Both the position numbers and the translations under genes were made by a program. The notes beneath the pieces were generated by a model. That model ran no database searches. It was given only the letters and a program-made list of their open reading frames with translations, and was not told the origin of the DNA. This document shows positions 9,993 through 46,114 of a DNA stretch of 64,000 bases, piece after piece; positions within the stretch are counted from its first letter, which is position 1; each line of letters opens with the position of its first letter. The stretch is from Ostreococcus lucimarinus (taxonomy: Eukaryota): the NCBI GenBank assembly GCA_000092065.1, contig CP000586.1. One strand, written 5' to 3'.

Positions 9993-10153
9993 GGTGTAAA
10001 CGCCGCAGCGCGCGGACGCGCGCGGACCAGAGAATGAGGGCTCGATCGAAGCATCTTGCGCGCGGAGACTAGGGGTACGTCGGAGATTGTACAACCGCGA
10101 ATGTATATTAAGAGCGTGCGGATACTTGCGTGCTACTGCTGATGCTAGAAAGG

Positions 10154-13100
10154 TTAAATATTTGCGTCGGGCGCAGACGCAGCCGCGCGGGCTCGCCGCG
10201 CGCGGAATCGACGCTGAAGTTTTAAGACGACGAGCATGACGCTCATGGAAATTGGCTTGCCGTCGAGATCAAACAATTCGTTCTCGTCGCCTTCTTCTGC
10301 GATTTCCATCTCGCGAATGGACGCAAAAGAGTCCCCGCGAAGTTCATCGGCGGCTTGTTCTTTGCGAGAAAGTTCTCTGACGAGAGTCGCTCTTCGACGG
10401 ACTTTGTTTCGAAGTCTCAAGAGAGAAGCCCGTTTGGCGTTTCTCCGATCCTCCTCGAGTTCGCGGCGAATTTCGAGCGGGAGGTAGTTGAGATCCACAC
10501 CCATAGCCTTGGCCGTAAAAGCCTGCAAGAGCTCGGTGTAATGAAGAAACCTCGACCCTCCTTGTAGATTGAGCGATCGAACGTGGTTGAGCATGCCCAA
10601 GTCAGTGACGCGCTTGCCCTTCAAACCCAATGGTTTTGGCGTGGCGAGAATGATGGCCTTTACGTCGATCGCGCTGACGAAACCGGTGAGATCTGGGTCG
10701 AACTTTTTCCAAACTCTGCGGAAAGCCTTGACGTCTTCAGGAGTCACGTTCTCATTCTCAGCTTCCTTTCTACTCATCGAATAGTTATCGAGCACGACAG
10801 CGATGAGTAAGTTGAGAATAATGAACGAAGAGAAAGCGACAAAGCTGACAAAGTAAACTGGAGCGACGGCGGTGCCGCAACACGTCCCGATGGCGCAATC
10901 GAAAGAAGCGTCGCAGTTTTTCTTGTTCATGCAATCATTCATGATCTCTTGCCACCCCTCGCCGGTCAACATCCGCAAAAGCGTGGAGAGGGAATTTCCA
11001 AAAGTTTTGAAGTTTGCGTGCCTATTGAGCGCTTCGCCATACGCGAGACGCCCGAAGACTTGTGTGCCTAATATGGCGTATATAAAAAACAGCAGCGCCA
11101 ACAACAGAGATATGTTGCCGAGCGCAGGAATTGTCATCACCAGCGTCTGGAACAACGTGTTCAATGATTTCCACTTTTTCACCATACGGAAAACTCTGCA
11201 GATGCGCAGAGCGCGGAACGCGCTAGATCCCGTTCCCGACTGCAAAATTGCACCCAAGATGGACGTTACGACGATGATAAAGTCGAACACATTCCAACCG
11301 GATGAAAAGTAACGTCGCGGGTACAGCGCGCCAATTTTCATCATCGCTTCAACTGCAAACGCAGCCGTGAAGATGTAGTTCAACACATCCAATGCAAACT
11401 TCTTTGAGGAGCTGTCGTGATCCGTCTCCGTCATGAGCACCACGGTGTTAATGAAGATGATAACCATGATGCTCGCATCAAATCTTGTGTCGTTGATCAA
11501 TTGGAAGAGCTTTGCGCGCCACTTTTGATGAGGCGGTCTTCTGAAAAATGATTGTCGAGCGGTGAAGTTCCTGTTGCGCTGCTGAGCAACCCACCTTGCC
11601 TGTGACTCGCTCATAATGGTGCGCGTCAGCGACGTCGTCGATATCTTCAAAAAGTTGTCGATGACGATACCGATGCACATATTGAACAAGAAGAAGTTCG
11701 ACAGAACGATAAAAATGAGGAAATACCACGTCGCGACTGGAGTACGATCTCGCACGGGCGCCACATCCGTGCCCACGGCGTCAGCTGCGTTGAACATAGT
11801 CACTGTCCACCCTTCGCCAGACGTCGTCTCAAACAACGTGAGCATTGCTCGTGGGAAAGAGTCAAAGTTGCTGTCAGCACTCTCCCAATCTCGAGTGACA
11901 TAAACCGCAGATGTGTAGCTGCCAGTGCATGCAGATTCGGTCGTTTTGGTGTAGTCGTTGCACGAAGACGTTATGACATCCCAAGTCCGCACACTCGTGC
12001 CGTTTGACCAAGAATCGACGCACGCCGATTTAGTGAGAATCGTGGGATCGGAGCAACTTTTAAACTTACCCATGAACAACGACATTCCTGCGATAGCAAA
12101 TATGATCCACACAATCAACGATACCAGAAGCACGTACACGAGACTCGGAAGCGATGCAATGAGCGCGTTGATTACCACTTTTAACCCTTGTACTCGCCCG
12201 AGAAGTCGAAGCGGTCGCAAAACGCGCAAAGTACGTAACGCACGAACCCATTTAAGATCCGCGCTGGATCCGAGACCCATACCGAGCAATCCGAAAAACA
12301 CGATAGTGCCATCGAGAACGTTCCACGGGTTCTTCAAGTACGAGTACTTATCGGCGTTGAACATGCCTAACGCGATCCACTTCATCAACAACTCCACCAC
12401 AAATGCAGAAGTGAAACAGTAATCAAGAATTTCTGCTCTCTCCTCAAAGTTTGGATTGTCCATATTCTCTGGCGTCTCCCAACACATGGTTATACTCGAG
12501 GCAATGATCAACATAAGAATGAACCAGTCAAATCGCCTGTCGTCCGCGATCGCGAAGCACGCTTTACGGACTGGGTGCGATGGCTTGAACAATCCAAAAA
12601 AGCTGCTTTGTTCAAACTTAGTGAGCGGAACTTTACTAAGCGCCCCTGGCTGCTTCTTCTGCATGTCCTTCGGACTCATAATGACGCTGGTTGTCTCAGC
12701 GCTACTTTCTTCCTCAATCATCTTTCTGGCTCGCTGCAATCTCAAATTTTCAACTTTAGCCGCTGCTTTTCTCTTCTCTCTCTTCAGCAATTCGTGGGCA
12801 AAATGTGCAAATCTCGTCGCAGTTTGGGATGGCTCATTATTTGCGCTATCATTCGACTCACGACTACGGACACTGTCCGATTTAGTCATTCGCATCCCAG
12901 CAAACACGCCAAAGATACTTTGTTTCTTCGCAGCCCTACTCTCTTGCAGTTGCTCTTGCAGGACTTCTTTGCGATTGTCAAAGTTGCTCAGCAAGATGGC
13001 GATGAGCGAGTTGAGAATGATAAAGTCGCCCAGAATGAGGACGACCACGAAATACAGAAGAGCGACTTTCGCGGTGGTGAACATGGTGTCATACATCACT

Positions 13101-15511
13101 AATGGCCAATCCTCGTGCGTGATGACTTGCACGACAGTAATAATAGCGTTGTTGAAGGTGTCAAAGTTCGACCGCGGCTTTGGGTCAATCTTACAGTAAT
13201 TGCCGCCAAAAAGTTGCATCCCGACGAGCGCAAAAATCAAAACAAATAGACACAAAATCGCTAGAAAACTCGATAAATCGACCAGAGTCTTCCAAATTGT
13301 TTTAAGCGTGCTCTGTAGAGACTGCCACGTTCGCATCAACTTGAGGATTCGGAAAACTCGGAGCGCGCGAAGGACGGTGAATTTTGACTTGCCTTCACCT
13401 CCATTCAAGCCGAGTTCAATACAAGACACGAGCACAATCCCCGCATCCAACCAATTCATGCGATCACGCACGTACTCAGGTATACCAAGCGCTACGACTT
13501 TAATCAATAATTCAAACATGAAAATCGCAGTAAACGCCAGATTCGCGTTTTCCAGCGCCTCTGAGTAACTGTTAGACATGCCGTCGTATTCCATCGCGAG
13601 CACGAGTGTGTTCAACAAAATACTGAAGTTGATGACCATGAAGAAAAAATCACCATCCACGAACTTCCGCGCACGTGGTTGTACGAAGTTCTTTATTCTG
13701 ACGAGTTGCGTTTTGATCCACTCGAGAGTTTGACTGCGTTTGTGGCGCACGACGGACGCGCTCATTGCTTCTCCTAACCCGTCATTCGTGGCACTTTCTG
13801 AGCGTGATAGCGCCTGGATAGCTCTTTCGAAGGTGGAGAAGCTCCCACTCGAGACTCTTTGCAACTCATCCATAATATTCGCGTCGTAAACCATGGTGAT
13901 GATGGCGAGTGCCAAGTTCAATATCACGAACGATCCAAAAAATATCACGGGCAGGAACCACATCACGACCGCAGGCGATACTGAATCTATGAGGTCTAAC
14001 ATCACGGGCGACCAATACTCGAGGGTTATCGTCTGGAAGATCACGAGCCAAGACCACCAGACGCTATCGAAACTCGCGTATCCATAGTTTGGATTTTCGT
14101 GATCTAAACACTCTTGGCCGCTGGGGCACTGCCACGCGGCTTGGGCGGTGGTTCCACATGCTTGATCTTCGTTCTTTTTCAGCAAAACTGCGTCACCAGA
14201 AGCGCGTTTGATGCATCGTACGTATTCTTGCGCCGTGTAACTCTCGCACGGCACGCTTGGCGGAAGTACATCGAAGCACCGTGTTCTCATCTTTCCGGCA
14301 AAGAACTGCACGCCAATGATACCGAAAATGCAGAAGAATAGCAAAAAGAATACAATCACGTTCGCAAGAAGTGGTAGAGACTTCAACATTGTCTCGATCA
14401 GCAATCGAAGCGATGGGAACATGCTAATCGTTCGCAGCGGACGCAGAATTCGCACTGTTCTTAAGGTGGACACGTTTGACCCCATATCGCCTGGCAGGAG
14501 GGCGACGACGGACACGATGACAATGCCAAAGTCCATCACGTTCCACGAGTCGCGTAAATACGCCCCCGAGTTTTTTGTATTCAATTTACCCACCACACCG
14601 AACGCTATCATCTTCAGCAACGCCTCGAGGGTGAATAAAATAGTGAACGTGAGTTCGCTCCGCTCCGCCGCGTCGTTCCTCGCCCCTCGCGTGGCAAACT
14701 GCCCGCACCCTCTACCCTCCAAGCGCTCGGGTTCGCTGAGGCACAGCAAAATCGTATTCGCAGCGATAATCAGCAGTACGATCCAATCAAACTCGTGTCT
14801 CTCGACGAGCTGAATGCAAAACTTGCGAATCGGGTTCTCCGCCCCGAACACCCCGAACGACTTTTCAGCGTAAATCTTCCCACTCACTCCCACGACTAAG
14901 CTATCCTCGCCCTCGATCGACGCATTTCCCGACGCTGACTCTTGCCTCGCCGCACTCACGTTCGCACTTCGTTCTTTCCCACTCTTCGTGTGTTCGCCCA
15001 AGCGATGATAAATGTCCACCAATTGTTCGCCTCGTTCGTCTCGCTCGCCGTCGTCGTCGCTTGAGTGGGAATCTCTCGCCCCGTCCCGATCGATGCCGTA
15101 ATACGATCCATCATCACCATCACCCTCATCGTCGGAATCGTCGCTCGAGCACGGCGCCGGTCCCGCGCGCGTCGCCGCTCCCGCGCGCCGCGTTTCGTCC
15201 TCCGTCTCGCGCTCGCCGCTCGAATTCCCATCGCTCGAATCCGCGCTCCCGTGTCGCATCACCAGCTCCGCGAACGCGACGGACGACAGCGACGCCCCCC
15301 CGCTCGCGCGTCTTCGTCCCTCGCGCGCGTTTTGCGACGCATCGCGCGCGACGAACGCACCGATCGTCCCCGCGCGTCGTGCCTCCGAATTCGCGTTCGC
15401 GTCGTCGTCGTCTTCATCGCGCGCCCTCGCGCCGCCGCGCGCGTCGCGCCGCCGCGTCGGCGCGTCGCCGGAGTCCGACTCCACGCCCCACCGGCTCGGC
15501 GCCATCGGCAT
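10154..15511 (-). CDS. Four-domain voltage-gated cation channel, Cav-like (EEEE selectivity filter)
   Basis: Four repeats of S1-S6 with R/K-spaced S4 segments (e.g. VRALRTLRVLRPLRLL). The pore loops are TLEYW, THEDW, SGEGW and TGEGW, each with a Glu at the selectivity position. There is a C-terminal IQ-like LKLQRRFRARRAR. The ORF-track start at 15646 is GTG. The first ATGs are at 15511 and 15505, so the start is uncertain. Confidence 0.9.
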   Translation of the reverse strand: MPMAPSRWGVESDSGDAPTRRRDARGGARARDEDDDDANANSEARRAGTIGAFVARDASQNAREGRRRASGGASLSSVAFAELVMRHGSADSSDGNSSGERETEDETRRAGAATRAGPAPCSSDDSDDEGDGDDGSYYGIDRDGARDSHSSDDDGERDERGEQLVDIYHRLGEHTKSGKERSANVSAARQESASGNASIEGEDSLVVGVSGKIYAEKSFGVFGAENPIRKFCIQLVERHEFDWIVLLIIAANTILLCLSEPERLEGRGCGQFATRGARNDAAERSELTFTILFTLEALLKMIAFGVVGKLNTKNSGAYLRDSWNVMDFGIVIVSVVALLPGDMGSNVSTLRTVRILRPLRTISMFPSLRLLIETMLKSLPLLANVIVFFLLFFCIFGIIGVQFFAGKMRTRCFDVLPPSVPCESYTAQEYVRCIKRASGDAVLLKKNEDQACGTTAQAAWQCPSGQECLDHENPNYGYASFDSVWWSWLVIFQTITLEYWSPVMLDLIDSVSPAVVMWFLPVIFFGSFVILNLALAIITMVYDANIMDELQRVSSGSFSTFERAIQALSRSESATNDGLGEAMSASVVRHKRSQTLEWIKTQLVRIKNFVQPRARKFVDGDFFFMVINFSILLNTLVLAMEYDGMSNSYSEALENANLAFTAIFMFELLIKVVALGIPEYVRDRMNWLDAGIVLVSCIELGLNGGEGKSKFTVLRALRVFRILKLMRTWQSLQSTLKTIWKTLVDLSSFLAILCLFVLIFALVGMQLFGGNYCKIDPKPRSNFDTFNNAIITVVQVITHEDWPLVMYDTMFTTAKVALLYFVVVLILGDFIILNSLIAILLSNFDNRKEVLQEQLQESRAAKKQSIFGVFAGMRMTKSDSVRSRESNDSANNEPSQTATRFAHFAHELLKREKRKAAAKVENLRLQRARKMIEEESSAETTSVIMSPKDMQKKQPGALSKVPLTKFEQSSFFGLFKPSHPVRKACFAIADDRRFDWFILMLIIASSITMCWETPENMDNPNFEERAEILDYCFTSAFVVELLMKWIALGMFNADKYSYLKNPWNVLDGTIVFFGLLGMGLGSSADLKWVRALRTLRVLRPLRLLGRVQGLKVVINALIASLPSLVYVLLVSLIVWIIFAIAGMSLFMGKFKSCSDPTILTKSACVDSWSNGTSVRTWDVITSSCNDYTKTTESACTGSYTSAVYVTRDWESADSNFDSFPRAMLTLFETTSGEGWTVTMFNAADAVGTDVAPVRDRTPVATWYFLIFIVLSNFFLFNMCIGIVIDNFLKISTTSLTRTIMSESQARWVAQQRNRNFTARQSFFRRPPHQKWRAKLFQLINDTRFDASIMVIIFINTVVLMTETDHDSSSKKFALDVLNYIFTAAFAVEAMMKIGALYPRRYFSSGWNVFDFIIVVTSILGAILQSGTGSSAFRALRICRVFRMVKKWKSLNTLFQTLVMTIPALGNISLLLALLFFIYAILGTQVFGRLAYGEALNRHANFKTFGNSLSTLLRMLTGEGWQEIMNDCMNKKNCDASFDCAIGTCCGTAVAPVYFVSFVAFSSFIILNLLIAVVLDNYSMSRKEAENENVTPEDVKAFRRVWKKFDPDLTGFVSAIDVKAIILATPKPLGLKGKRVTDLGMLNHVRSLNLQGGSRFLHYTELLQAFTAKAMGVDLNYLPLEIRRELEEDRRNAKRASLLRLRNKVRRRATLVRELSRKEQAADELRGDSFASIREMEIAEEGDENELFDLDGKPISMSVMLVVLKLQRRFRARRARAAASAPDANI

Positions 15512-15809
15512 CGCGCGCGGCGCGCGCGCGCGTCGTCGTCTGTCGGCCGGGGCGGCCGGTCTCGTGTCGCAGCGGTAAAAAACACGGACCACGTCGCGCA
15601 TCGGATCGCGTCGCGACGCGCGTCGCGGCGTCGCGCGCTCGCGCACTCGCGCGCGCGCGAACGCGCGGAACGACGCGGGAGAGGCGTTTACACCGCGCGA
15701 AGACGCGCGAGACGCGCGAAAGCGGCGCGCGAAACGGTGAAGACGAACGAGTCGAACGAATCTCCGCGCGGGTGGTTGAAAACGCCGCGACGAGGACGAG
15801 GCGCGCGCG

Positions 15810-37056: not shown

Positions 37057-37128
37057 TGCTGAATAGGAGGTTCGAACTCCTGATCGCCTCCTTACTAAAG
37101 AGGCGCCTTACCACTTGGCCAATTCAGC
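37057..37128 (-). tRNA. trnT-AGU: tRNA-Thr (anticodon AGU)
   Basis: Minus-strand 72-nt cloverleaf. Acceptor GCTGAAT/ATTCAGC (7 bp), D-arm GCC-AAGTGGTAA-GGC, anticodon stem CCTCT/GGAGG, loop TTAGTAA (anticodon AGT), T-arm AGGAG-TTCGAAC-CTCCT, discriminator A. Confidence 0.8.
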
Positions 37129-37875: not shown

Positions 37876-40617
37876 CTATGCGCCGGCGAGAAGCTCTTCG
37901 ACGCGCTTTCTTTTCAACTTTTCCGTGATTTCATCCAACAGAAACCCATCCATGAGTGCGTTGACGTCGGAAATCGTCCCCTCGACGCGATGGTCCTTGA
38001 CTCGACCTTGCGCGAAGTTGTACGTTCGAATCCGTTCGCTTCGATCACCCGTACCGATCAACGAGCTTCGCAGCTCGCTTCGCTCTTTCGCCATCTTCTC
38101 GCGCTCTAAGTCGTACAATCGCGCCTTGAGCACGCTGAACGCCTTGGCTTTGTTCTTGTGCTGGCTTCGCTCGTCTTGGATCACGACTTGGATCCCCGTC
38201 GGCGCGTGCGTGAGGCGAACCGCGGAGTTGGTGGTATTGACGTGCTGACCACCAGCGCCGCTGGCGCGCATGGTGTCGATGCGAACATCCTCCTCTTTGA
38301 TGTCCATCTCCACCTCTTCCGCATGCGGAAGCACCGCGATGGACGCTGTGCTCGTGTGCACTCTGCCTTGCGTCTCCGTCTCGGGCACGCGCTGCACGCG
38401 ATGGACGCCGGATTCAAACTTCAACCTCCCAAATACGCCTTTGCCTAGAATTTCAGCGCTCGCTTCTCGAACGCCCTTACCATCGGTCTCACTCACGTTC
38501 AACGTATCGAACCTCCAACCGCTCTTTCTCGCGTGTAAGGCATACATGCGGAACAGCTCGGCGGCGAAGAGCGCGGCTTCGTCGCCGCCCGCGCCGGCGC
38601 GAACCTCTAAAATCGCGCCCCGATCGTCTGCGTCGTCGTGAGGCAAGAAAAGCAGCTGCAGCGCTAGCTCTTGATCGGGTAAATCGATGTCAACGGCGCG
38701 CAGCTCCTCGCGCGCGAGCTCGGCAAGCTCTTTAGAATCACCCCCGCTCGACGCGTCTCGCACCAATTCCTCGAGAGACGCCTTTTCGGCGCGAAGCTTT
38801 TTGACGACTTCATACTGCTCCGCGATGGGTTCAATTCGGCTGAGTTCCTTGTTTGCTTCGACAACGCGATCGATATCGACGCCTTGGCGCGAGATGAGCG
38901 CGATCAATTCCTCTCGTCGCCGCAGCGCGGCTTCGCCTCTTTCCTCCAAGGCGTCCGTCGAAGACGTCGAAGACGAGTACGACCTCGTTCCGGCCATCGC
39001 GCGCTCGAGCGTCGATCCGACGCGCACGAGCCGAGCTTCTCGGAATTTTGGCGCGATCATTTGCATACCAATGGGTAAGCCGCTCGCCCTCGAGCGCCCA
39101 GCGGGCATGGACATCGCGGGTAAACCCGCGAGCGATGCGGGCACCGTCATGACGTCGGCGGCGTACGTTTGCGCCGGACTCAGTGCCTCGACGTCGGAAA
39201 GTTTTGGTGCCGTCGACACGCTGGATGGTGTGAGCAACACATCTACGCCACCGCCTTCGCCGCCGAACACGTTTGTAAAGTCGTCCGACACCAATCTTCG
39301 AACCTTTTGCGCCTTTTCAAAGTATTCCGCCGCGCGCGCGCTGCTCAGGGCAAACGCGCCGACTGTGACGCGGCGACGAACCTCGTCGCCGAAACCCAAG
39401 CTTCGCGCCTTCGCGATGGCGCTTTGAAACTCTTCAGCAAGATATTCTTCTCGCGAAAGGTCACGCGTGAGGTCACCGTAGCGCATACCGTCGTAACGTG
39501 CGAGATTACTCGACGCCTCGGCCGGGGCGAGGACGTAGTAACACGGCAACGCCGCCTCGGTGTGCGGCATGTTGACGCGCACAATTTCCGCCCCGAGCGC
39601 CTCCATCGCGCGCACCATTTCGTTCCACGCGTCATACACTTCTTGAGTCAATTCGCTCACCGCGTATTCCTCTGGAACGCCCACGCGCAAGCCCTTCAAA
39701 GATGCTGCTTTTGGCGTCGTCTCGTCGACGAATTCGAGCGCCGCCGCGTCTAAATCCTCGCACCGCGCCACCGTCGTCGCGTCCAGGGCGTCCTCGCCCT
39801 GAATCGCCGCGAGCACGACCCCAGCATCACTCACCGTCCGCGCTAAAACCCCCACCGTGTCCAACGAGCTACAATACGACACGAGACCGAACCTACTCAC
39901 CCTGCCGTACGTCGGCTTCAATCCGACCGCGCCGCAATACGCCGCGGGCAATCGCACGCTCCCCCCCGTATCGCTTCCGAGCGCGTAAAACGCCGAACCG
40001 TTCACAACCGCCGCCGCGGACCCCCCGCTCGACCCCCCGCTCGACCTTTCGCCGTCCGACGACGTCGGATTCAGCGTCGTCTGCCCCGACGTCCGCGTGT
40101 GACTCCCCATGCCGAACTCGTCCATGTTCGTCTTCCCAATCAACACCCCCCCCAGCGCGCGCAACCGCGCGATCGCCGTCGCCTCGATCGGCGATTCGTA
40201 CCCCTCCAAAATCCTCGATCCCGCGCTCGTCGTCCCGACGTTCGCGCACAGATTATCCTTCGCCGCGAACGGGACGCCGTCGAGCGCGCTCGCTCGCCGC
40301 CTCGCCTCCCCATCCGCCTCGCCTTCCGTCTCGCCCCGCTCTCGCCGCGCGTCCGACGCGCGCGCGTCCGCCAGCGCGCGTCTCGCGTGCGCGTCTCGCG
40401 ACGCGGCGCTCCCGACGAACGCGCGCGACGTGAGCGCGTCCGCGTCGACGCGACGCGCGCAGTGCGAGAGCAGGTCGACCGCGGTCAGCGCGCGCGCGTC
40501 GAGCGCGCGCGCGGCTTCGGCGACGGTGCGCGGCCACGACGCCGCGGACGTGGACGCGGTCGCGTTCGAGCGCGCGCGCGCGACGCCGCGCGCGGCGCGT
40601 CGCGCGTGGACGCGCAT
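37876..40617 (-). CDS. gatA-prfA: Glu-tRNA(Gln) amidotransferase subunit A (GatA) fused in frame to peptide chain release factor 1 (RF1)
   Basis: A complete GatA (GVPFAAKDNLC...GKTNMDEFGMGS...GGSSGGSAAAV...GSDTGGSVRLPAAYCG...GLPIGMQMIAPKFREARL) and a complete RF1 (EVRAGAGGDEAALFAAELFRMY...RASGAGGQHVNTTNSAVRLTHAPTGI...RIRTYNFAQGRVKDHR) lie in one uninterrupted frame. I chose the first plausible ATG at 40617 (cat 40615-40617). The ORF-track extension to 41265 overlaps a plus-strand gene. Confidence 0.8.
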   Translation of the reverse strand: MRVHARRAARGVARARSNATASTSAASWPRTVAEAARALDARALTAVDLLSHCARRVDADALTSRAFVGSAASRDAHARRALADARASDARRERGETEGEADGEARRRASALDGVPFAAKDNLCANVGTTSAGSRILEGYESPIEATAIARLRALGGVLIGKTNMDEFGMGSHTRTSGQTTLNPTSSDGERSSGGSSGGSAAAVVNGSAFYALGSDTGGSVRLPAAYCGAVGLKPTYGRVSRFGLVSYCSSLDTVGVLARTVSDAGVVLAAIQGEDALDATTVARCEDLDAAALEFVDETTPKAASLKGLRVGVPEEYAVSELTQEVYDAWNEMVRAMEALGAEIVRVNMPHTEAALPCYYVLAPAEASSNLARYDGMRYGDLTRDLSREEYLAEEFQSAIAKARSLGFGDEVRRRVTVGAFALSSARAAEYFEKAQKVRRLVSDDFTNVFGGEGGGVDVLLTPSSVSTAPKLSDVEALSPAQTYAADVMTVPASLAGLPAMSMPAGRSRASGLPIGMQMIAPKFREARLVRVGSTLERAMAGTRSYSSSTSSTDALEERGEAALRRREELIALISRQGVDIDRVVEANKELSRIEPIAEQYEVVKKLRAEKASLEELVRDASSGGDSKELAELAREELRAVDIDLPDQELALQLLFLPHDDADDRGAILEVRAGAGGDEAALFAAELFRMYALHARKSGWRFDTLNVSETDGKGVREASAEILGKGVFGRLKFESGVHRVQRVPETETQGRVHTSTASIAVLPHAEEVEMDIKEEDVRIDTMRASGAGGQHVNTTNSAVRLTHAPTGIQVVIQDERSQHKNKAKAFSVLKARLYDLEREKMAKERSELRSSLIGTGDRSERIRTYNFAQGRVKDHRVEGTISDVNALMDGFLLDEITEKLKRKRVEELLAGA

Positions 40618-40651
40618 CGATCGAGCGAAGACGAGACGGTTGCGGCACACA

Positions 40652-41365
40652 ATGACGCTCGGCGTCGCGCGCGCCGCGGCGCCGTCGCGCGCGCGCGCCG
40701 CGGTCGCGCGCGGTCGTCGCGCGGTCGTCGCCGCGCGTCGTCGCTCGGCCGTCGCGCGCGCGATCGTCGCGCGTCGCGCGCGCGAGGTCGTCGAAGTCGA
40801 CGCCGAAGTCGACGGCGGGCGAACGAACGCCGCGCGAACGACCGTGGCGCTCGCGCTGACGCTCGCGCTGACGCTCGCGACGCCGCACGCGGCGCGCGCG
40901 AGGGAGTTCTTCCCGCAGTCGCCGCCCGACGACCCGATCGAGCCGTTCAGCGTGTTCGGGACGGTGGAGAAGGCGTTCAGCGTCGCGGTGCTCGACGAGA
41001 GTGGGTCGAAAATCGTGGCGAGAAAACGCGGCATGAGCGTGAAGTCGTGCGTGAACGTGGTGCCGGCGTCGAGACAGGGGCCGAGAGGACCGCCCGAGGC
41101 GCTGAGACCGTCGGCGTGCGCGGAGGCGGAGGCGCTGGGGGAGATTCGGGAGCAGCGGGACATGTTGAAGGCGTGCGCGCCGGCGTGCAAGGCGTCGTGC
41201 TCGAGGGCGATCGCGGAGTACGACGAGGGACAGAGGAAGACGACGGGATTTGGGTTAGATGCCAAGGCAAAGGAGCGAGTGTTGAAAGCGTGCGTCGTGA
41301 CGTGCGGGAAGGATTGCGAAAAGGCGGGAAAGTCGTACGATTACATCATACCGTTTCGATTTTGA
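40652..41365 (+). CDS. Small Cys-rich protein with presequence and hydrophobic signal-like segment
   Basis: ATG at 40652. R/A-rich presequence, then TVALALTLALTLATPHAARA, then eight Cys including paired CxxxC motifs (CAPAC, CVVTC). Ends YDYIIPFRF. Confidence 0.4.
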   Translation: MTLGVARAAAPSRARAAVARGRRAVVAARRRSAVARAIVARRAREVVEVDAEVDGGRTNAARTTVALALTLALTLATPHAARAREFFPQSPPDDPIEPFSVFGTVEKAFSVAVLDESGSKIVARKRGMSVKSCVNVVPASRQGPRGPPEALRPSACAEAEALGEIREQRDMLKACAPACKASCSRAIAEYDEGQRKTTGFGLDAKAKERVLKACVVTCGKDCEKAGKSYDYIIPFRF

Positions 41366-41421: not shown

Positions 41422-44345
41422 CTAAGGTTCGCGAGACGATTCGCTGGACGCTGAAAACTCCGCGAGCGCGGCAGCGTACGCCTCTTTCGCCGTCTTGGCA
41501 TCGCTCTCGTACTTGGCTTTGCGTTCTGGATCGAGCGAGGCCCACCGCTCGCCGAGCGCCTTGGCGACTTCGCCGACTTTAAAGGTTGGATTTTCCGCCT
41601 TGACTGACGCGCGTTCGTCCGCCGAGAACGCGAAAAAGGCCGTGAGCGGTTTTTTCATTCCTGGAACTTCCACCTTGGGCTTCGGCGCCTTCTTTGCCTT
41701 TGGATATTTGGCTTCCTTCTTTGCCTCTGGCTCCTTCTTCGGCTTTGGTTCCTTCGCCTTCTTCGGCTCCTTTTTCGCCTTGGTCTTTTTCGAAGCGTAT
41801 CGACCGCGCGTGCGCGGTGGGCGCTCGGCTTTTTTGCGCAACAATTCGACAGCTTCGTCGATATCGACGTTTTCGACCGCACCGACGCGCTTCAATACGG
41901 TTTTCCCGATGGATGCTCTGAGAACTTCGCCGGCGACTTCGGACGCGACGTACCAACCAAATGGGCCAATGTTGAGCGAAACGGGCGCCTGCGTCACCGG
42001 ATGCACACCAAGCACTTTGGGGTATTCAAACATCCCGATGGCTTCCGCGAGAGTGATCTTGTTGACGTCCTTGCCGATGTTTGCCACTCCGACGCGACGA
42101 GGTGCAGGCGGTTTCTTCGGTTTCTTTGCCTTCTTCCCATCCTCTGCCGGCGTCGCCGCCGCGAGCTCTTGAACGCCGAGTTGTAAATATGGGCCATAAG
42201 GACCAAGTCGGAGAGAAATTTCTTTTCCGGTCGCTGGATCAACGCCAAGCACCTTGGGATACATCACTGCGTCGGGATCTTCGACGGTGGCGACGAAATC
42301 TGGATCATCCGTGTCGCTCACGATGGCGCCTCGAATCGGATGCAACGGGTGCGTGAAGCCGCATTCAGGGTAGCGACTGCACCCAATGAATCCACCAGCT
42401 TTTGATGGCTTTAAACCAAGTCTGCCAATTTTACAGCTCGGGCATCTCCGTGCTTCGCTCACGACGTCGTCGGAATCGCTTAATTCGGCGACTTGATCCG
42501 GGTTGATGTGCACGTGGCCGTCATACGTCGCCTCGCCGAAGAGATGCTGCCCGAGCTTCTCATCGAGAGCGTCGATGACTTCGCTCACGCGCAGCTCCGA
42601 AAGCGACGATATTTTATCCCTAAACGGCGTCCACCACTCCTCGAGTAACGGTTTCCATTGTACTTGTTCGCTCGTGATGTCGTCAAGCTTGTGTTCCAAA
42701 TCCGCCGTGAAGCCGTAATCGACGTACGTCTCAAAGTAATTCGTGAGAAACGCAGAGACTAGACGACCGCGAGTCGTGGGAACGAGTGCGGCACCTTGCT
42801 TTGCGACGTACTCACGCTGCGCGAGCACCTTTAAAATCGGTGCGTACGTGCTCGGTCGCCCGATGCCTCGTTCTTCGAGCGCCTTGACGATGGAACCATC
42901 CGTGTAGCGAGGCGGCGGCGACGTTTTGTGCTCTGTCGCCTCGCACCCGAGACTCTCACCGTCAGTTTTCACAGACAAACCTTCGCCTTCACCAAGAATA
43001 GGTAACCACGCGTCGTCTGAAGGTGGCGCAGCTTCGGGTCTGGACGTTCGATACGCCGCAAGGAATCCCGGAAACTTGAGCCTGTGTCCGTTCGCCTTGA
43101 GCTTTAAGTCGTTCTCTGCGGAGGCAATTTCAGCCGCTATGCGATCGGTAAGCGCAGGTGACATTTGTGACGCCATAGTGCGCGCCCAAATCAACGCATA
43201 AAGTCTCGCTTCATCGCTGCCTGGTCCTATTTGCCGCGCAACTTGCGCGGGAAGCCGTCCAGCCTTGGTAGGTCGAATCGCTTCGTGCGCCTCTTGCGCA
43301 TTCTTTTGCTTCTTCTTAAAGTATCTGGGCGATTCAGGCACGTACTCATCACCAAAAAGCTCACCAGCGGTCGTACGCAAGCTTTCAATCGCATGTGGGG
43401 CGACGTACGTGCCATCTGTGCGCATGTACGTAATCAAACCTTCGCCCGTGCCCGCGCCCTCGTACAGTCGTTGCGCCGCCGACATCGTCCTCGACGCACC
43501 GAAACCGAGCTGCTTGTTCGCTTCCTGCTGCATCGTCGACGTCGTGAACGGTGGTCCACTCGTACGCTTGGCTTCGCTGTGCTTCACCTCCACCACCCGC
43601 AGCGTATCGCATTCTCGCACGCGCTTGGCGTACGCCTCGGCTTCGTCGTTCGAAGCGATGGTAAACTTTCCAAGCTTAGCGCCATCGACGTGCGTCAAAG
43701 CGGCGTCAAACGTAGAGCCGTCTTTTGAACTTAAACTCGCCTTCACCGTCCAATACGGCTCGCTCACGAACGCCTCCACCTCTTCCTCTCTTTCGCACAC
43801 TAATCGCAGCGCCACGCTCTGCACGCGACCCGCGGACAGGCTCACGCTCGACGGCAACTTACGCCACAGTAGCCCAGAGAGCGTGAATCCGAATAGATAA
43901 TCCAGCGCGCGTCGCGCCATGTACGCATCAACCATCGGAACGTTAATGTCCCGCGGAGAACCCACCGCGTCGAGCACCGCTGTTTTCGTAATCTCCCCAA
44001 ACGTCACGCGCTTGACGTCCAAGTCGTCGCGCAACAATTTCTTCTCCCGAAGCACCTCGAGCAAGTGCCACGAGATAGCCTCACCCTCTCGGTCTGGATC
44101 CGTCGCGAGCAGCAGCACATCCGTCTTCTTCAACGCCTCCGTGATGTCTCGCATCGCCGCCTTTTGCCTCGACGTCGACGTCCACGTCATCGCGAACGAT
44201 TCCTCCGGCCGCACGCTTCCCTGTTTATTCACCAGATCACGCACGTGCCCGTAGCTCGCCAGCACTTTCGCGTTCGCACCCAAATACTTCTCGATCGTCT
44301 TCGCCTTGGCCGGAGACTCGACGATCATGAGCGTCCGTTTCCCGT

Positions 44346-44385
<40 letters not shown>

Positions 44386-44604
44386 GCCGCTCGCGACCGC
44401 GCGCGCCGTCGCCGCCGTCTTCGTCGTCTCGCCCCATCCACCCTCGCGTCCTCCCCACGCGATCCCGCGCGTCGCGCGCGCGCCGACGCTCGCGACGAGC
44501 CGTCGCACGCCGCCCGCGCGCGCGCGCGCCGTCCACATCGCCGCCGACGACTGCGAATTCCCAACCGACTCCGCGCGCGACGCCGCGGCGCCACTCGCGC
44601 GCAT
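41422..44604 (-). CDS. topA: DNA topoisomerase I, type IA (bacterial TopA-like, organelle-targeted) with a C-terminal HMG box
   Basis: TOPRIM start RTLMIVESPAKAKTIEKYLG, Topo IA core, Zn-ribbon CPSCKIGRLGL...CSRYPECGF, then a Lys-rich linker and an HMG box (KKPLTAFFAFSADERASVKAENPTFKVGEVAKALGERWASLDPERKAKYESDAKTAKEAYAAALAEF). Candidate ATGs are at 44820, 44766, 44604 and 44538. The first two overlap the divergent SEC12 start, so I chose 44604. Confidence 0.85.
44345..44384. repeat. (CGT)n/(ACG)n trinucleotide repeat encoding a 12-residue poly-Thr tract
   Basis: cgtcgtcgt... x13 lies inside the topoisomerase presequence. Similar (ACG)n tracts are at 232-251, 54001-54037 and 57153-57182. Confidence 0.85.
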
Positions 44605-44764
44605 CAACCGCGCCCGCGGACGCGCGCCGCGCGCGGCGACCTCCCCGCGCGTCGCCGCCGCGCGCGGCGCCGCTCGTCCGCGCGGTGCGCGCGCGCGAAT
44701 GCGGCGAACGTCGCGACGCGCGTCGATTCGCGACTCGCCCGAACATCGCGACGCGCGCGCCGCC

Positions 44765-46114
44765 ATGTTCGACCGCGCGAGCGCGCGCGCGCGGCGCGCG
44801 AAGAAGTACGGCCAGCCCATCTACGCCGGCGCGTGGCTGGACGATCGCACCGCGCTCCTCGCCGGGGGCGGCGGGAAGAAGTCGAGCGGGATTCCGAATC
44901 GAATCTTGATCGCGTCGTGCGAGCGTGGCCCGCACGGAACGACGCTGGCGGACGCCGAGGCGTGGACGCACACGGACGAAGACGCGCCGCAGCGGCTGGC
45001 GGTGCACCCGGGGCGCGAACACGTGGTGTGCGCGTTCGGGGGGACGCTGGGGGTGTTTCGAGCGCGGCGAGGCGCGAACGACGGCGCGGACGAGGGCGCG
45101 TCGTCGTCGGGAACGAACGGGGAGGCGCGGTGGACGATCGAATCGTGCGCGAGCGCGTTGGGACTGCCGAATCGCGTGCACGTGACGCCGGATGAGCGGG
45201 AGATTAAGTGCGCGGCGTTCGACGCGGAGGGCGCGCGGTTGGCGCTGGGATTGGAGAGCGGGGAGGTAAAGATTCTAGCGTGGCCGTCGTTGGAGGTGGA
45301 GAAAGAGCTCGGGGCGCACGAGAAAGGGGCGGTGACCGATATCGCCTGGGCGCCCGACGGCGATGGGCTGTTGACGACGTCGGCGGAGAACGCGACGGCG
45401 AGTAACATCGGTCGCGGCGCCGCGGTGTGGAGCGTCGAGCGCGGCGAACGCGTGCTGACGTTGTTCGACGAGTCCATCGTGAAGAAGAGCGGGGTGCGGA
45501 ACGTGGTGTTTCGCGGCGCGGCGTACGGCCGAGGCACGAACGCGTCGACGAGCGTGGCGTGGACTGGGGTGAATCTAGACGGCGAAGGTTGGGTGGTGAA
45601 GTGGGACGTCGCCACGTGGAAAGTCATCAGCAAGGCGCGAGTGTTCAAAAGCGAGCCCATCTCCGGGTTCGCGGTGAACGCGCAGGGTACGCTCATCGCC
45701 GTCGGAAGCTCCGAAGGCGAAGTAAAAGTCGTGGACGCGCAAAAGTTTACGCTCATTAAACCGGTGAAGAAGGCGCACATGATTTTCGTCACCACCATGG
45801 CGTGGAATCCCAAAGGAAACGTCGTCCTCTCGGGCTCCGCCGACGCCAGCGCTTTGGCGACGAAGATCGAAAAGCAGTCATGGACCTTGCGTTTGGTGCT
45901 CTGGTTCACCGTGTTCGTGATGTTGATCGTCGGCTGGATAACGTTGCTGTCGACAATCTTCCCCGACCCGCTCGCGCGCGCGCTCGAAGACGGCGATTAC
46001 GCCCGCGCCGCGCAAGCCGTCGCCGACTATTTCAGCGAGACCAAGATCCCGGCCGCGACGTTAGAAACGATCGAGGACGCCGTCGCCGGCGTCTCCGCCC
46101 GCGACGAGCTTTAG
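44765..46114 (+). CDS. SEC12: SEC12/PREB-like WD40 guanine-nucleotide exchange factor with C-terminal TM anchor
   Basis: KYGQPIYAGAWLDDRTALLAGGGGKKSSGIPNRILI resembles the Sec12 N-terminus ([21 protein letters not shown]). WD blades follow, then TM WTLRLVLWFTVFVMLIVGWITLL. The only in-frame ATG ahead of the conserved start is at 44765. Confidence 0.6.
   Translation: MFDRASARARRAKKYGQPIYAGAWLDDRTALLAGGGGKKSSGIPNRILIASCERGPHGTTLADAEAWTHTDEDAPQRLAVHPGREHVVCAFGGTLGVFRARRGANDGADEGASSSGTNGEARWTIESCASALGLPNRVHVTPDEREIKCAAFDAEGARLALGLESGEVKILAWPSLEVEKELGAHEKGAVTDIAWAPDGDGLLTTSAENATASNIGRGAAVWSVERGERVLTLFDESIVKKSGVRNVVFRGAAYGRGTNASTSVAWTGVNLDGEGWVVKWDVATWKVISKARVFKSEPISGFAVNAQGTLIAVGSSEGEVKVVDAQKFTLIKPVKKAHMIFVTTMAWNPKGNVVLSGSADASALATKIEKQSWTLRLVLWFTVFVMLIVGWITLLSTIFPDPLARALEDGDYARAAQAVADYFSETKIPAATLETIEDAVAGVSARDEL

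What the first reader, a model, noticed from the sequence alone, without database searches (positions are those of the whole stretch)
41422..41900. Bacterial-type topoisomerase IA carrying a C-terminal HMG box after a Lys-rich linker
After the TopA core, Zn ribbon and C-terminal repeats, the protein continues into a KKxK-rich linker (KKTKAKKEPKKAKEPKPKKEPEAKKEAKYPKAKKAPKPK). A canonical HMG box follows (KKPLTAFFAFSADERASVKAENPTFKVGEVAKALGERWASLDPERKAKYE...). An HMG box would add architecture-specific, bent-DNA binding to an organelle-targeted topoisomerase, which would suit nucleoid association. This domain combination is unusual.
Basis: partly seen in the sequence, partly recalled or inferred. 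Interest (0 to 1): 0.5.

Follow-up and report, generated by a model that had tools for sequence, protein, structure and literature searches.

The report
Algal organelle-type topoisomerase I with HMG box
A green-alga (Ostreococcus-type) nuclear gene encodes a bacterial-style DNA topoisomerase I that really does end in a eukaryotic HMG-box DNA-binding domain, and the fusion is conserved across green algae, sits unremarked in public databases, and probably anchors the enzyme on organelle DNA.

Summary
One uninterrupted ORF (window 41422-44820, minus strand, 1132 aa) carries Toprim, the TopA core, one Zn ribbon, two C-terminal repeats and a disordered Lys-rich linker. It ends in an HMG box (PF00505, 68 bits, E 8e-19; AF2 pLDDT 86-96; 1.1-1.4 A rmsd to HMG-D and HMGB1 box B).

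It is one gene. The frame stays continuous in more than 20 relatives, two assembled transcripts span both parts, and the Met before the box is not conserved. The box is under purifying selection (dN/dS 0.07-0.21, no indels).

The fusion is not unique to this window. It occurs in O. tauri (XP_003079855.2), in a sister Mamiellophyceae-like clade with two tandem boxes, and in Cymbomonas and Volvox. It also occurs in an unnamed alga with three boxes and a probable diatom with four.

The Lys-rich linker resembles the basic tail of the closest bacterial relatives (Alphaproteobacteria). Only the HMG box is the eukaryotic addition.

Organelle targeting is inferred, from an Arg/Ala-rich, fast-evolving N-terminal extension and published localisation of plant and red-alga TOP1. 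It was not shown here.

No paper I could search describes the architecture. My verdict is a new variant of a known kind, of moderate interest.

The parts
41422..44820 (-). Whole ORF, 1132 aa plus stop codon (41422-41424): TopA-HMG fusion gene with no intron needed. The real start is probably M73 (44604) or M95 (44538).
   Evidence: The first ATG overlaps head-to-head the conserved start (44765, + strand) of the neighbouring WD40 gene. The 99%-identical P0001 starts at the Met equivalent to M73.
44341..44820 (-). N-terminal extension upstream of the Toprim domain (aa 1-160): putative organelle targeting peptide, including a run of 12 Thr.
   Evidence: Of the 163 residues before the VESPAKA motif (numbering from the ORF's first ATG), 32 are R, 39 A, 2 K and 7 D+E. 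AF2 pLDDT is about 29. dN/dS is about 1, with many indels between species.
43993..44334 (-). Toprim domain (aa 163-276), with invariant E168 and D241/D243/E245.
   Evidence: Pfam 69 bits; invariant columns in a 48-sequence alignment.
42643..43947 (-). Type IA topoisomerase core (aa 292-726), with catalytic Tyr465 in GLITYMRTDG.
   Evidence: Pfam 380 bits. Y465 and R467 are invariant. The motif aligns with GYITYMRTDS of M. smegmatis TopA 6pcm (417 bits).
42337..42450 (-). Single C4 zinc ribbon (aa 791-828; C793, C796, C814, C820).
   Evidence: Pfam 42 bits; the cysteines are invariant or nearly invariant.
41812..42258 (-). Two topoisomerase C-terminal repeats (about aa 855-1003; the second is 940-1003).
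   Evidence: Pfam Toprim_C_rpt, 2 stretches. AF2 predicts beta-rich modules with pLDDT 80-90. They match the C-terminal repeats of M. smegmatis TopA.
41665..41802 (-). Disordered Lys-rich linker (aa 1007-1052; 19 K, 7 P, 6 E and 7 A in 46 aa).
   Evidence: composition; AF2 pLDDT below 50 over 1007-1048. It is indel-rich between species but always basic. It is positionally equivalent to the K/A/P tail of alphaproteobacterial TopA.
41455..41655 (-). HMG box (aa 1056-1122), HMGB/NHP6/Abf2 type, three helices.
   Evidence: PF00505 68-74 bits. The PDB sequence search puts HMGB1 box B and Abf2 box 1 on top. AF2 helices are 1061-1076, 1082-1094 and 1098-1128, pLDDT 86-96. Foldseek rmsd is 1.1-1.4 A to HMG-D and HMGB1. 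dN/dS is 0.07-0.21 with no indels.
41425..41454 (-). Short Ser/Glu-rich C-terminal tail (SASSESSREP).
   Evidence: Ostreococcus-group orthologues also end in short S/E/D-rich tails.

Best explanation
This is a nuclear gene of an Ostreococcus-clade green alga. It encodes a catalytically intact bacterial-type (TopA) type IA topoisomerase whose closest bacterial relatives are alphaproteobacterial.

An N-terminal targeting peptide most likely sends the enzyme to the mitochondrion and/or the chloroplast. There it would relax negative supercoils and unlink replication and recombination intermediates of the multicopy organelle genome.

Its DNA-binding C-terminal region is modular. It has a Zn ribbon and two Topo_C repeats (ssDNA binding in bacterial homologues). 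A disordered Lys-rich tail follows that matches, in position and composition, the tail of its closest bacterial relatives. A single HMGB-type HMG box was then added in the eukaryote.

The HMG box is a non-sequence-specific binder of double-stranded DNA that prefers bent or distorted DNA. Together with the Lys tail, it would act as a flexible second anchor. That anchor would keep the enzyme on nucleoid DNA (higher affinity and processivity) and bias it towards bent, crossed or underwound DNA.

Shown here: the architecture, that it is one gene, its conservation and purifying selection, the fold, the catalytic residues and the bacterial affinity. Inferred: localisation, DNA binding by the box, and the tether/processivity role.
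For: Architecture and fold.

Catalytic residues are invariant.

Single gene: the frame is continuous in P0001-P0015 and P0021 and in P0264, P0335, P0339, P0391 and P0448. MMETSP and Tara ORFs, both flagged complete (the MMETSP entry is named Transcript_1203), contain the TopA N-terminus and the HMG boxes. The Met before the box is replaced by L, P or V in orthologues. Synteny is conserved in three related loci.

Selection: dN/dS for the HMG box is 0.07-0.21 against 0.055-0.08 for the core and about 1 for the N-terminal extension.

The N-terminal extensions of 17 homologues are R/A/S/T-rich, with net charge +6 to +27 and almost no K, D or E.

The best 120 hits outside the algal group are all TopA without HMG. 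Every named one is alphaproteobacterial, mostly Rhodospirillales. The algal proteins form one group against them in 200/200 NJ bootstraps.

Basic tails are present in all bacterial relatives examined.

Literature: AtTOP1 localises to chloroplasts and mitochondria by GFP, C. merolae TOP1 to the plastid, and O. lucimarinus TOP1 (id 41359) is predicted pt/mt (PMC4166229). Lys repeats in the Streptomyces TopA C-terminus stabilise the enzyme-DNA complex and give processivity (PMC5714199). HMG-box proteins organise organelle nucleoids: HBD1 in the Chlamydomonas chloroplast, and TFAM, Abf2 and Glom in mitochondria (PMC8157925).
Against: There is no localisation data for this protein and no targeting predictor was available. 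My amphipathic-helix test on the N-terminal extension was not significant.

The Lys-rich stretch could equally serve as a nuclear localisation signal, and most HMG boxes are nuclear.

No biochemical evidence exists that the box binds DNA in this context or changes processivity.

Which organelle is involved is unresolved. The alphaproteobacterial affinity speaks to ancestry, not present location.

The bacterial sample in my tree held only alphaproteobacteria, so the origin was not tested against cyanobacteria.
Confidence: 0.6

Rival explanations
1. Substrate targeting rather than general tethering. The HMG box would recognise DNA crossings, four-way junctions or hemicatenanes. It would deliver the type IA enzyme specifically to recombination-dependent replication intermediates of organelle genomes, acting as a built-in equivalent of the structure-specific partners that Top3 uses.
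For: HMGB1 binds hemicatenated DNA loops tightly, and type IA enzymes process hemicatenanes and double Holliday junctions (PMC4370885). Yeast mitochondrial HMG proteins prefer recombination and replication intermediates (abstract of PMC4725248). The box is of the HMGB/Abf2 type.
Against: In that same paper E. coli topoisomerase I did not act on double-strand hemicatenanes. No binding data exist for this box. This reading is not exclusive of the tether model.
Confidence: 0.2
2. The protein works in the nucleus, or in both nucleus and organelle. The Lys-rich stretch would be a nuclear localisation signal and the HMG box a chromatin-binding module, giving the alga a bacterial-type relaxing activity on nuclear chromatin.
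For: The KKxK-rich segment and HMG box resemble nuclear HMGB/H1-like proteins. The closest named free-standing HMG boxes are nuclear types, DSP1-like and NHP6.
Against: All 17 homologues examined keep an Arg/Ala-rich, acid-poor N-terminal extension of 50-163 aa (measured from each ORF's first ATG) that evolves neutrally, which is typical of cleaved targeting peptides. The Lys tail is already present in the bacterial relatives, where no nucleus exists. Plant and red-alga homologues are organellar (PMC4166229). HMG boxes do work in organelles (PMC8157925).
Confidence: 0.12
3. Architectural role. The HMG boxes, one here and two to four in relatives, would make the protein a major nucleoid-packaging factor, a TFAM/HBD1 analogue, with topoisomerase activity as a coupled function.
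For: Tandem two-box arrangements like those of TFAM, Abf2 and HBD1 occur in the sister clade and in Cymbomonas, and there are three and four boxes in P0335 and P0391. Two boxes are what allows HBD1 to bend and bridge DNA (PMC8157925).
Against: The window protein has a single box. Packaging proteins are small and abundant, whereas a protein of about 115 kDa is unlikely to be stoichiometric with DNA. Nothing is known about its abundance.
Confidence: 0.06
4. Gene-model artefact. TopA and a small HMG-box gene would be separate genes that merely lie in one open frame in this assembly.
For: A Met (M1055) lies immediately before the box.
Against: That Met is not conserved; orthologues have L, P or V there. 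The frame is continuous in every orthologue from 30% to 99% identity, and assembled transcripts span both parts. There is no stop codon, and no space for a promoter in a 46-aa coding linker.
Confidence: 0.02

Closest known systems
Alphaproteobacterial DNA topoisomerase I (TopA), e.g. Caenispirillum, Azospirillum, Rhodospirillum rubrum
   Same: 45-50% identity over about 70-78% of the ORF, that is the Toprim-to-repeat core. Same order of Toprim, core, one Zn ribbon and two Topo_C repeats, and the same Lys/Ala/Pro-rich C-terminal tail.
   Different: No N-terminal extension and no HMG box. The bacterial protein ends 14-84 aa after the last repeat.
Organellar TOP1 (type IA) of plants and algae: Arabidopsis At4g31210 (chloroplast + mitochondrion), C. 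merolae CMI252C (plastid), O. lucimarinus 41359 (PMC4166229)
   Same: A nuclear-encoded, bacterial-type TopA with an N-terminal extension. O. tauri XP_003079855.2 is a 78%-identical orthologue of the window protein.
   Different: The published accounts do not mention an HMG box. I could not test whether At4g31210 or Cre10.g442850 carry one. Volvox africanus VaNZ11_007253 does.
Actinobacterial TopA with Topo_C repeats and a Lys-repeat tail (M. smegmatis 6pcm; Streptomyces coelicolor TopA, PMC5714199)
   Same: 6pcm is the best solved relative (417 bits). It shares non-zinc C-terminal repeats and a basic tail that stabilises the enzyme-DNA complex and confers processivity.
   Different: Different bacterial lineage, and no folded dsDNA-binding domain after the tail.
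Chlamydia trachomatis TopA with a C-terminal SWIB domain (mentioned in PMC4758235)
   Same: A bacterial-type TopA with a eukaryotic chromatin-type domain fused to its C-terminus.
   Different: A different added domain (SWIB, thought to mediate protein interactions). It occurs in a bacterium, acquired by horizontal transfer, rather than in a eukaryotic nuclear gene.
Organelle nucleoid HMG-box proteins: HBD1 (Chlamydomonas chloroplast), TFAM, Abf2p, Glom
   Same: The same HMGB-type box; Abf2 box 1 scores 43 bits with rmsd about 1.4-1.6 A. These show the domain can function inside DNA-containing organelles. Glom also combines a Lys-rich region with HMG boxes (own knowledge).
   Different: They are small proteins of about 20-25 kDa with two boxes and no enzyme domain. 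The window protein has one box on a topoisomerase of about 1060 aa.

Membership tests
Bacterial-type DNA topoisomerase I (type IA, TopA) | Toprim and type IA core domains above the curated Pfam thresholds | tested here: met
   PF01751 scores 69.4 bits (cut-off 23.1) and PF01131 scores 379.9 bits (cut-off 35.1). It matches TopA structures at 330-417 bits against about 78-86 bits for topoisomerase III.
Bacterial-type DNA topoisomerase I (type IA, TopA) | Catalytic Tyr and Toprim acidic residues (Glu, DxDxE) present | tested here: met
   E168, D241, D243, E245, Y465 and R467 are invariant in 48 sequences. The Tyr motif aligns with that of M. smegmatis TopA.
Bacterial-type DNA topoisomerase I (type IA, TopA) | C-terminal ssDNA-binding modules (Zn ribbon and/or Topo_C repeats) | tested here: met
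   PF01396 scores 42 bits with four conserved Cys, and PF13368 is found twice.
Bacterial-type DNA topoisomerase I (type IA, TopA) | Mg-dependent relaxation of negatively supercoiled DNA | not testable with these tools
   Needs a purified enzyme.
HMG box (PF00505), HMGB-type non-sequence-specific class | Profile match above the gathering threshold | tested here: met
   68.3 bits in the whole protein and 73.7 bits in the last 120 aa, against a cut-off of 25.4.
HMG box (PF00505), HMGB-type non-sequence-specific class | Three-helix L-shaped fold | tested here: met
   AF2 gives three helices, pLDDT 86-96 in the full model and 82 on its own. Foldseek gives TM 0.79-0.85 (normalised by target length) and rmsd 1.1-1.4 A to HMG-D and HMGB1 box B.
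HMG box (PF00505), HMGB-type non-sequence-specific class | Ser/Thr rather than Asn at the base-contacting position of helix 1, and a hydrophobic wedge residue (assignment of these positions from own knowledge) | tested here: met
   KKPLTAFFAFS aligns with KRPPSAFFLFC of HMGB1 box B and with KRPMNAFIVWS of SRY. The window has Thr where SRY has Asn, and the Phe-Phe pair is kept. Sequence-specific SOX/SRY/LEF boxes score lower, 28-32 bits against 43-47.
HMG box (PF00505), HMGB-type non-sequence-specific class | Binds and bends DNA | not testable with these tools
   Needs gel-shift or circularisation assays.
Organellar TOP1 (type IA) of photosynthetic eukaryotes | Nuclear-encoded gene | tested here: met
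   The window carries typical nuclear genes, including symplekin, a DDB1/CPSF160-type protein, a four-repeat ion channel and WD40. Synteny is shared with O. tauri contigs.
Organellar TOP1 (type IA) of photosynthetic eukaryotes | Cleavable N-terminal targeting peptide | tested here: inconclusive
   Composition and evolutionary rate fit and AF2 predicts disorder. The amphipathic-helix test was not significant, and no TargetP or PredAlgo was available.
Organellar TOP1 (type IA) of photosynthetic eukaryotes | Localisation in plastid and/or mitochondrion | not testable with these tools
   Only literature on homologues is available (PMC4166229).
Organellar TOP1 (type IA) of photosynthetic eukaryotes | Orthology with Arabidopsis At4g31210 | not tested
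TFAM/Abf2/HBD1-type nucleoid packaging proteins | Two tandem HMG boxes in a small basic protein | tested here: not met
   The window protein has one box on a protein of 1060-1132 aa. Relatives have two to four boxes but also on the full enzyme. It may work partly like them but is not a member.

The most novel reading that the evidence does not exclude
The TopA-HMG protein would be a core structural component of green-algal (and possibly diatom) organelle nucleoids. It would be a 'topoisomerase with built-in TFAM', in which the number of HMG boxes (1 to 4 between lineages) tunes DNA bending and bridging. Supercoil relaxation or decatenation would be physically coupled to compaction. This would fill the unexplained gap left by the absence of a TFAM-like packaging protein in green-lineage mitochondria.
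Probability: 0.12. Interest if true: 0.7.

Novelty: new variant of a known kind. Interest (0 to 1): 0.45.

Why it matters
Type IA topoisomerases are classified largely by their C-terminal DNA-binding modules, and a folded eukaryotic dsDNA-bending domain is not among those described. Two reviews of these C-terminal domains never mention HMG (PMC10969213, PMC9369019).

A conserved TopA-HMG fusion with 1-4 boxes is a natural experiment in how an endosymbiont-type (alphaproteobacteria-like) enzyme was re-equipped with host chromatin parts.

It also provides a concrete, genetically tractable candidate for linking DNA topology to nucleoid organisation in chloroplasts or mitochondria, because O. tauri can be transformed. 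It extends the recent finding that HMG-box proteins act in chloroplast nucleoids (HBD1).

It also matters for annotation. These proteins are labelled only 'DNA topoisomerase' or 'hypothetical protein'.

Tried and rejected
1. A word-indexed search with a profile of the C-terminal 215 aa returned only fragments and free HMG proteins and no new full-length fusions. The exhaustive profile search was needed. Even there, multi-box HMG proteins filled most of the top 150, so fusions with low total scores may have been missed.

2. I tested the separate-gene idea through the Met before the box. It is rejected because the Met is not conserved and transcripts span both parts.

3. A hydrophobic-moment test for a mitochondrial-type amphipathic presequence was not significant (12-14% of shuffles reach it from M73 or M95). 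It cannot separate mitochondrial from chloroplast targeting.

4. The first NJ script timed out. I redid it with numpy distances. That tree holds only alphaproteobacterial outgroups, so it does not test a cyanobacterial origin.

5. Eight full-text searches combining topoisomerase or type IA with HMG, Ostreococcus, Micromonas, green algae, nucleoid, At4g31210 and Cre10.g442850 found no description of the fusion. The supplement of the HBD1 paper, which lists algal two-HMG-box proteins, is not held.

6. dS between Ostreococcus species is near saturation (1.0-2.3), so the dN/dS values are approximate.
Full report
**1. The observation**

The minus strand of the window carries one uninterrupted ORF, 41422-44820, of 1132 aa.

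Pfam on the whole protein gives:
- Toprim, aa 163-276
- Topoisom_bac, aa 292-726 (380 bits, E 2e-113)
- Zn_ribbon_Top1, aa 791-828
- two Toprim_C_rpt stretches
- HMG_box PF00505, aa 1056-1122 (68.3 bits against a cut-off of 25.4, E 7.9e-19)

The last 120 residues alone give 73.7 bits.

In window coordinates the linker is 41665-41802, the HMG box 41455-41655 and the stop codon 41422-41424.

**2. Is the HMG box canonical?**

Among solved structures its best sequence matches are HMGB1 box B (43.5 bits) and box 1 of the yeast mitochondrial packaging protein Abf2 (43.3 bits). NHP6A, HMG-D and TFAM follow. The sequence-specific SRY, SOX and LEF boxes score lower, at 28-32 bits.

The segment KKPLTAFFAFS aligns with KRPPSAFFLFC of HMGB1 box B. 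It has Thr where SRY has Asn and keeps the Phe-Phe pair. That these positions distinguish non-specific from specific boxes is my own knowledge.

AlphaFold2 on the full protein gives pLDDT 86-96 over residues 1050-1127, with three helices at 1061-1076, 1082-1094 and 1098-1128. The domain folded alone gives pLDDT 82. Foldseek against the PDB superposes it on HMG-D and HMGB1 box B at 1.1-1.4 A over about 70 residues.

**3. One gene or two?**

The Met just before the box (M1055) could suggest an independent small gene. Several results argue against that:
- **Non-conserved Met.** It is replaced by L, P or V in orthologues.
- **Continuous frame.** TopA and the HMG box are in one frame in every relative found, from 99% down to 30% identity.
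- **Transcripts.** An MMETSP ORF (P0174, source name Transcript_1203) and a Tara ORF (P0224), both flagged complete, contain the TopA N-terminus and the HMG boxes.
- **Selection.** Codon comparison with two related loci (L001, and L002 from the O. tauri cluster) gives dN/dS of 0.07-0.21 for the box with no indels. The core gives 0.055-0.08 and the N-terminal extension about 1. The linker is indel-rich but always basic (dS is near saturation, so the values are approximate).
- **Synteny.** The order WD40 gene, TopA-HMG, small ORF, Amidase+RF1 ORF is conserved in three related loci.

**4. Organism and true start**

The 78%-identical cluster P0003 contains Ostreococcus tauri XP_003079855.2 / A0A090M290, annotated only as a type IA DNA topoisomerase. 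The other large ORFs in the window are ordinary nuclear eukaryotic genes. The window is therefore nuclear DNA of an Ostreococcus-clade alga.

The ORF's first ATG (44820) overlaps head-to-head the conserved start of the divergent WD40 gene at 44765. The real start is therefore probably M73 (44604), as in the 99%-identical P0001, or M95.

**5. The enzyme part**

The Toprim Glu (E168), the DxDxE motif (D241, D243, E245), the catalytic Tyr (Y465 in GLITYMRTDG) and R467 are invariant across 48 aligned sequences. The four Zn-ribbon cysteines are invariant or nearly so.

The best solved relative is M. smegmatis TopA 6pcm (417 bits), including its C-terminal repeats. Topoisomerase III scores only about 78-86 bits. 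This is a TopA-type enzyme and looks catalytically competent.

**6. Bacterial affinity and the linker**

Outside the algal group, the best 120 hits in two searches are TopA proteins without HMG. All the named ones are Alphaproteobacteria, mostly Rhodospirillales, at 42-50% identity.

In an NJ tree of 849 columns the algal proteins separate from 24 alphaproteobacterial sequences in 200/200 bootstraps. The one-box plus two-box Mamiellophyceae-like group has 199/200 support. No other bacterial phyla were in the tree.

All 35 bacterial relatives aligned end, at the position of the algal linker, in a 14-84 aa Lys/Ala/Pro-rich tail such as AKKAPAKK repeats. The 'KKxK-rich linker' therefore most likely corresponds to this pre-existing basic tail, and only the HMG box is the eukaryotic addition. 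This is an inference from position and composition; tails this simple cannot be aligned to prove descent. AF2 predicts the linker to be disordered, with pLDDT below 50 over 1007-1048.

**7. Distribution of the fusion**

| Group | HMG boxes | Evidence |
|---|---|---|
| Ostreococcus-group clusters (71-99% identity) | 1 | |
| Sister Mamiellophyceae-like group (42-49% identity, 1189-1388 aa) | 2 tandem | |
| Cymbomonas tetramitiformis KAK3242876.1 (fragment) | 2 | |
| P0264/P0413 | 2 | |
| P0335, an unnamed Ala/Gly-rich alga | 3 | |
| P0391 | 4, and no Zn ribbon | |
| Volvox africanus VaNZ11_007253 | 1, C-terminal | |

The contig carrying P0391 holds a silicon-transporter gene next to it. This suggests a diatom or another silicifying organism.

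The architecture is therefore widespread in Chlorophyta and perhaps beyond. I could not test land plants (At4g31210) or Chlamydomonas (Cre10.g442850).

**8. Targeting**

In 17 homologues the stretch before the Toprim domain is 50-163 aa, measured from each ORF's first ATG. It is rich in Arg, Ala, Ser and Thr, nearly free of Lys, Asp and Glu, and carries net charge +6 to +27. It is disordered in the model and evolves neutrally. All of this fits a cleaved organelle-targeting peptide.

According to the literature, AtTOP1 is in both chloroplasts and mitochondria by GFP, and C. merolae TOP1 is in the plastid. O. lucimarinus TOP1 is predicted pt/mt (PMC4166229).

My hydrophobic-moment test was not significant. 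Targeting remains an inference, and the organelle is unresolved.

**9. Mechanism**

The best-supported reading is a flexible second DNA anchor. The Zn ribbon and Topo_C repeats would handle single strands as in bacterial TopA. [quoted passage not shown] The HMGB-type box binds and bends duplex DNA without sequence preference. Together they would hold the enzyme on nucleoid DNA and bias it to bent or crossed segments.

HMG-box proteins are known to work in organelle nucleoids: HBD1 in the Chlamydomonas chloroplast, and TFAM, Abf2 and Glom in mitochondria (PMC8157925).

There are four rival readings:
- **Junction or hemicatenane targeting.** HMGB1 binds hemicatenated loops tightly (PMC4370885).
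- **A nuclear role.**
- **A packaging role.** This is more plausible for the relatives with two to four boxes.
- **A gene-model artefact.** This is effectively excluded.

**10. Comparison and novelty**

The closest known relatives or analogues are:
- alphaproteobacterial TopA (same core and tail, no HMG)
- the organellar TOP1 of plants and algae
- actinobacterial TopA with Lys repeats
- Chlamydia TopA with a C-terminal SWIB domain, another eukaryotic chromatin domain on a TopA (PMC4758235)
- the organelle HMG proteins

Two reviews devoted to type IA enzymes and their C-terminal domains contain no mention of HMG (PMC10969213 and PMC9369019). The HBD1 paper never mentions topoisomerase. Eight literature searches found no description of the fusion.

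The proteins themselves are already in public databases. I therefore rate this a new variant of a known kind: real, conserved and mechanistically suggestive, but a domain fusion of two well-understood modules, with its function still untested.

Noticed in passing
window 37876-41265 (-); L001 10032-12704; L002 10096-12672; L003 6226-8802: One ORF carries an Amidase/GatA-type domain (aa 317-746) followed by the PCRF and RF-1 release-factor domains (aa 791-1093). The same single ORF is called in three related Ostreococcus-clade loci. This looks like a conserved fusion of two translation factors that are probably organellar.
   Followed up: partly
window 44604-44820 (-) and 44765 (+): The first ATG of the TopA ORF overlaps head-to-head the conserved start of the divergent WD40 gene. 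The true TopA start is therefore probably M73 (44604) or M95 (44538), giving about 1060 aa rather than 1132.
   Followed up: yes
window about 44350-44385 (-), aa 146-157: There is a run of 12 consecutive Thr in the N-terminal extension. The 99%-identical metagenomic relative P0001 has 11, so the repeat varies in length.
   Followed up: no
L004 459-4736 and 5254-6624: A divergent TopA with four HMG boxes and no Zn ribbon (P0391) lies next to a silicon-transporter gene (PF03842). This suggests that a diatom or another silicifier carries the same kind of fusion, whether by independent origin or ancient descent.
   Followed up: partly
window 40109-41365 (+): A convergent neighbouring ORF ends 57 nt from the TopA stop. 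It has no Pfam match but a Cys-rich C-terminal region. A small ORF without Pfam hits occupies the same position in L001-L003.
   Followed up: no
window 10001-14000: GC falls to 0.47-0.52 against 0.57-0.68 elsewhere. The drop lies over a 1830-aa ORF (10154-15646, -) that encodes a four-repeat Ion_trans cation channel.
   Followed up: no
window 37057-37128 (-): This tRNA-Thr (anticodon AGT) is the only tRNA gene found in the window.
   Followed up: no
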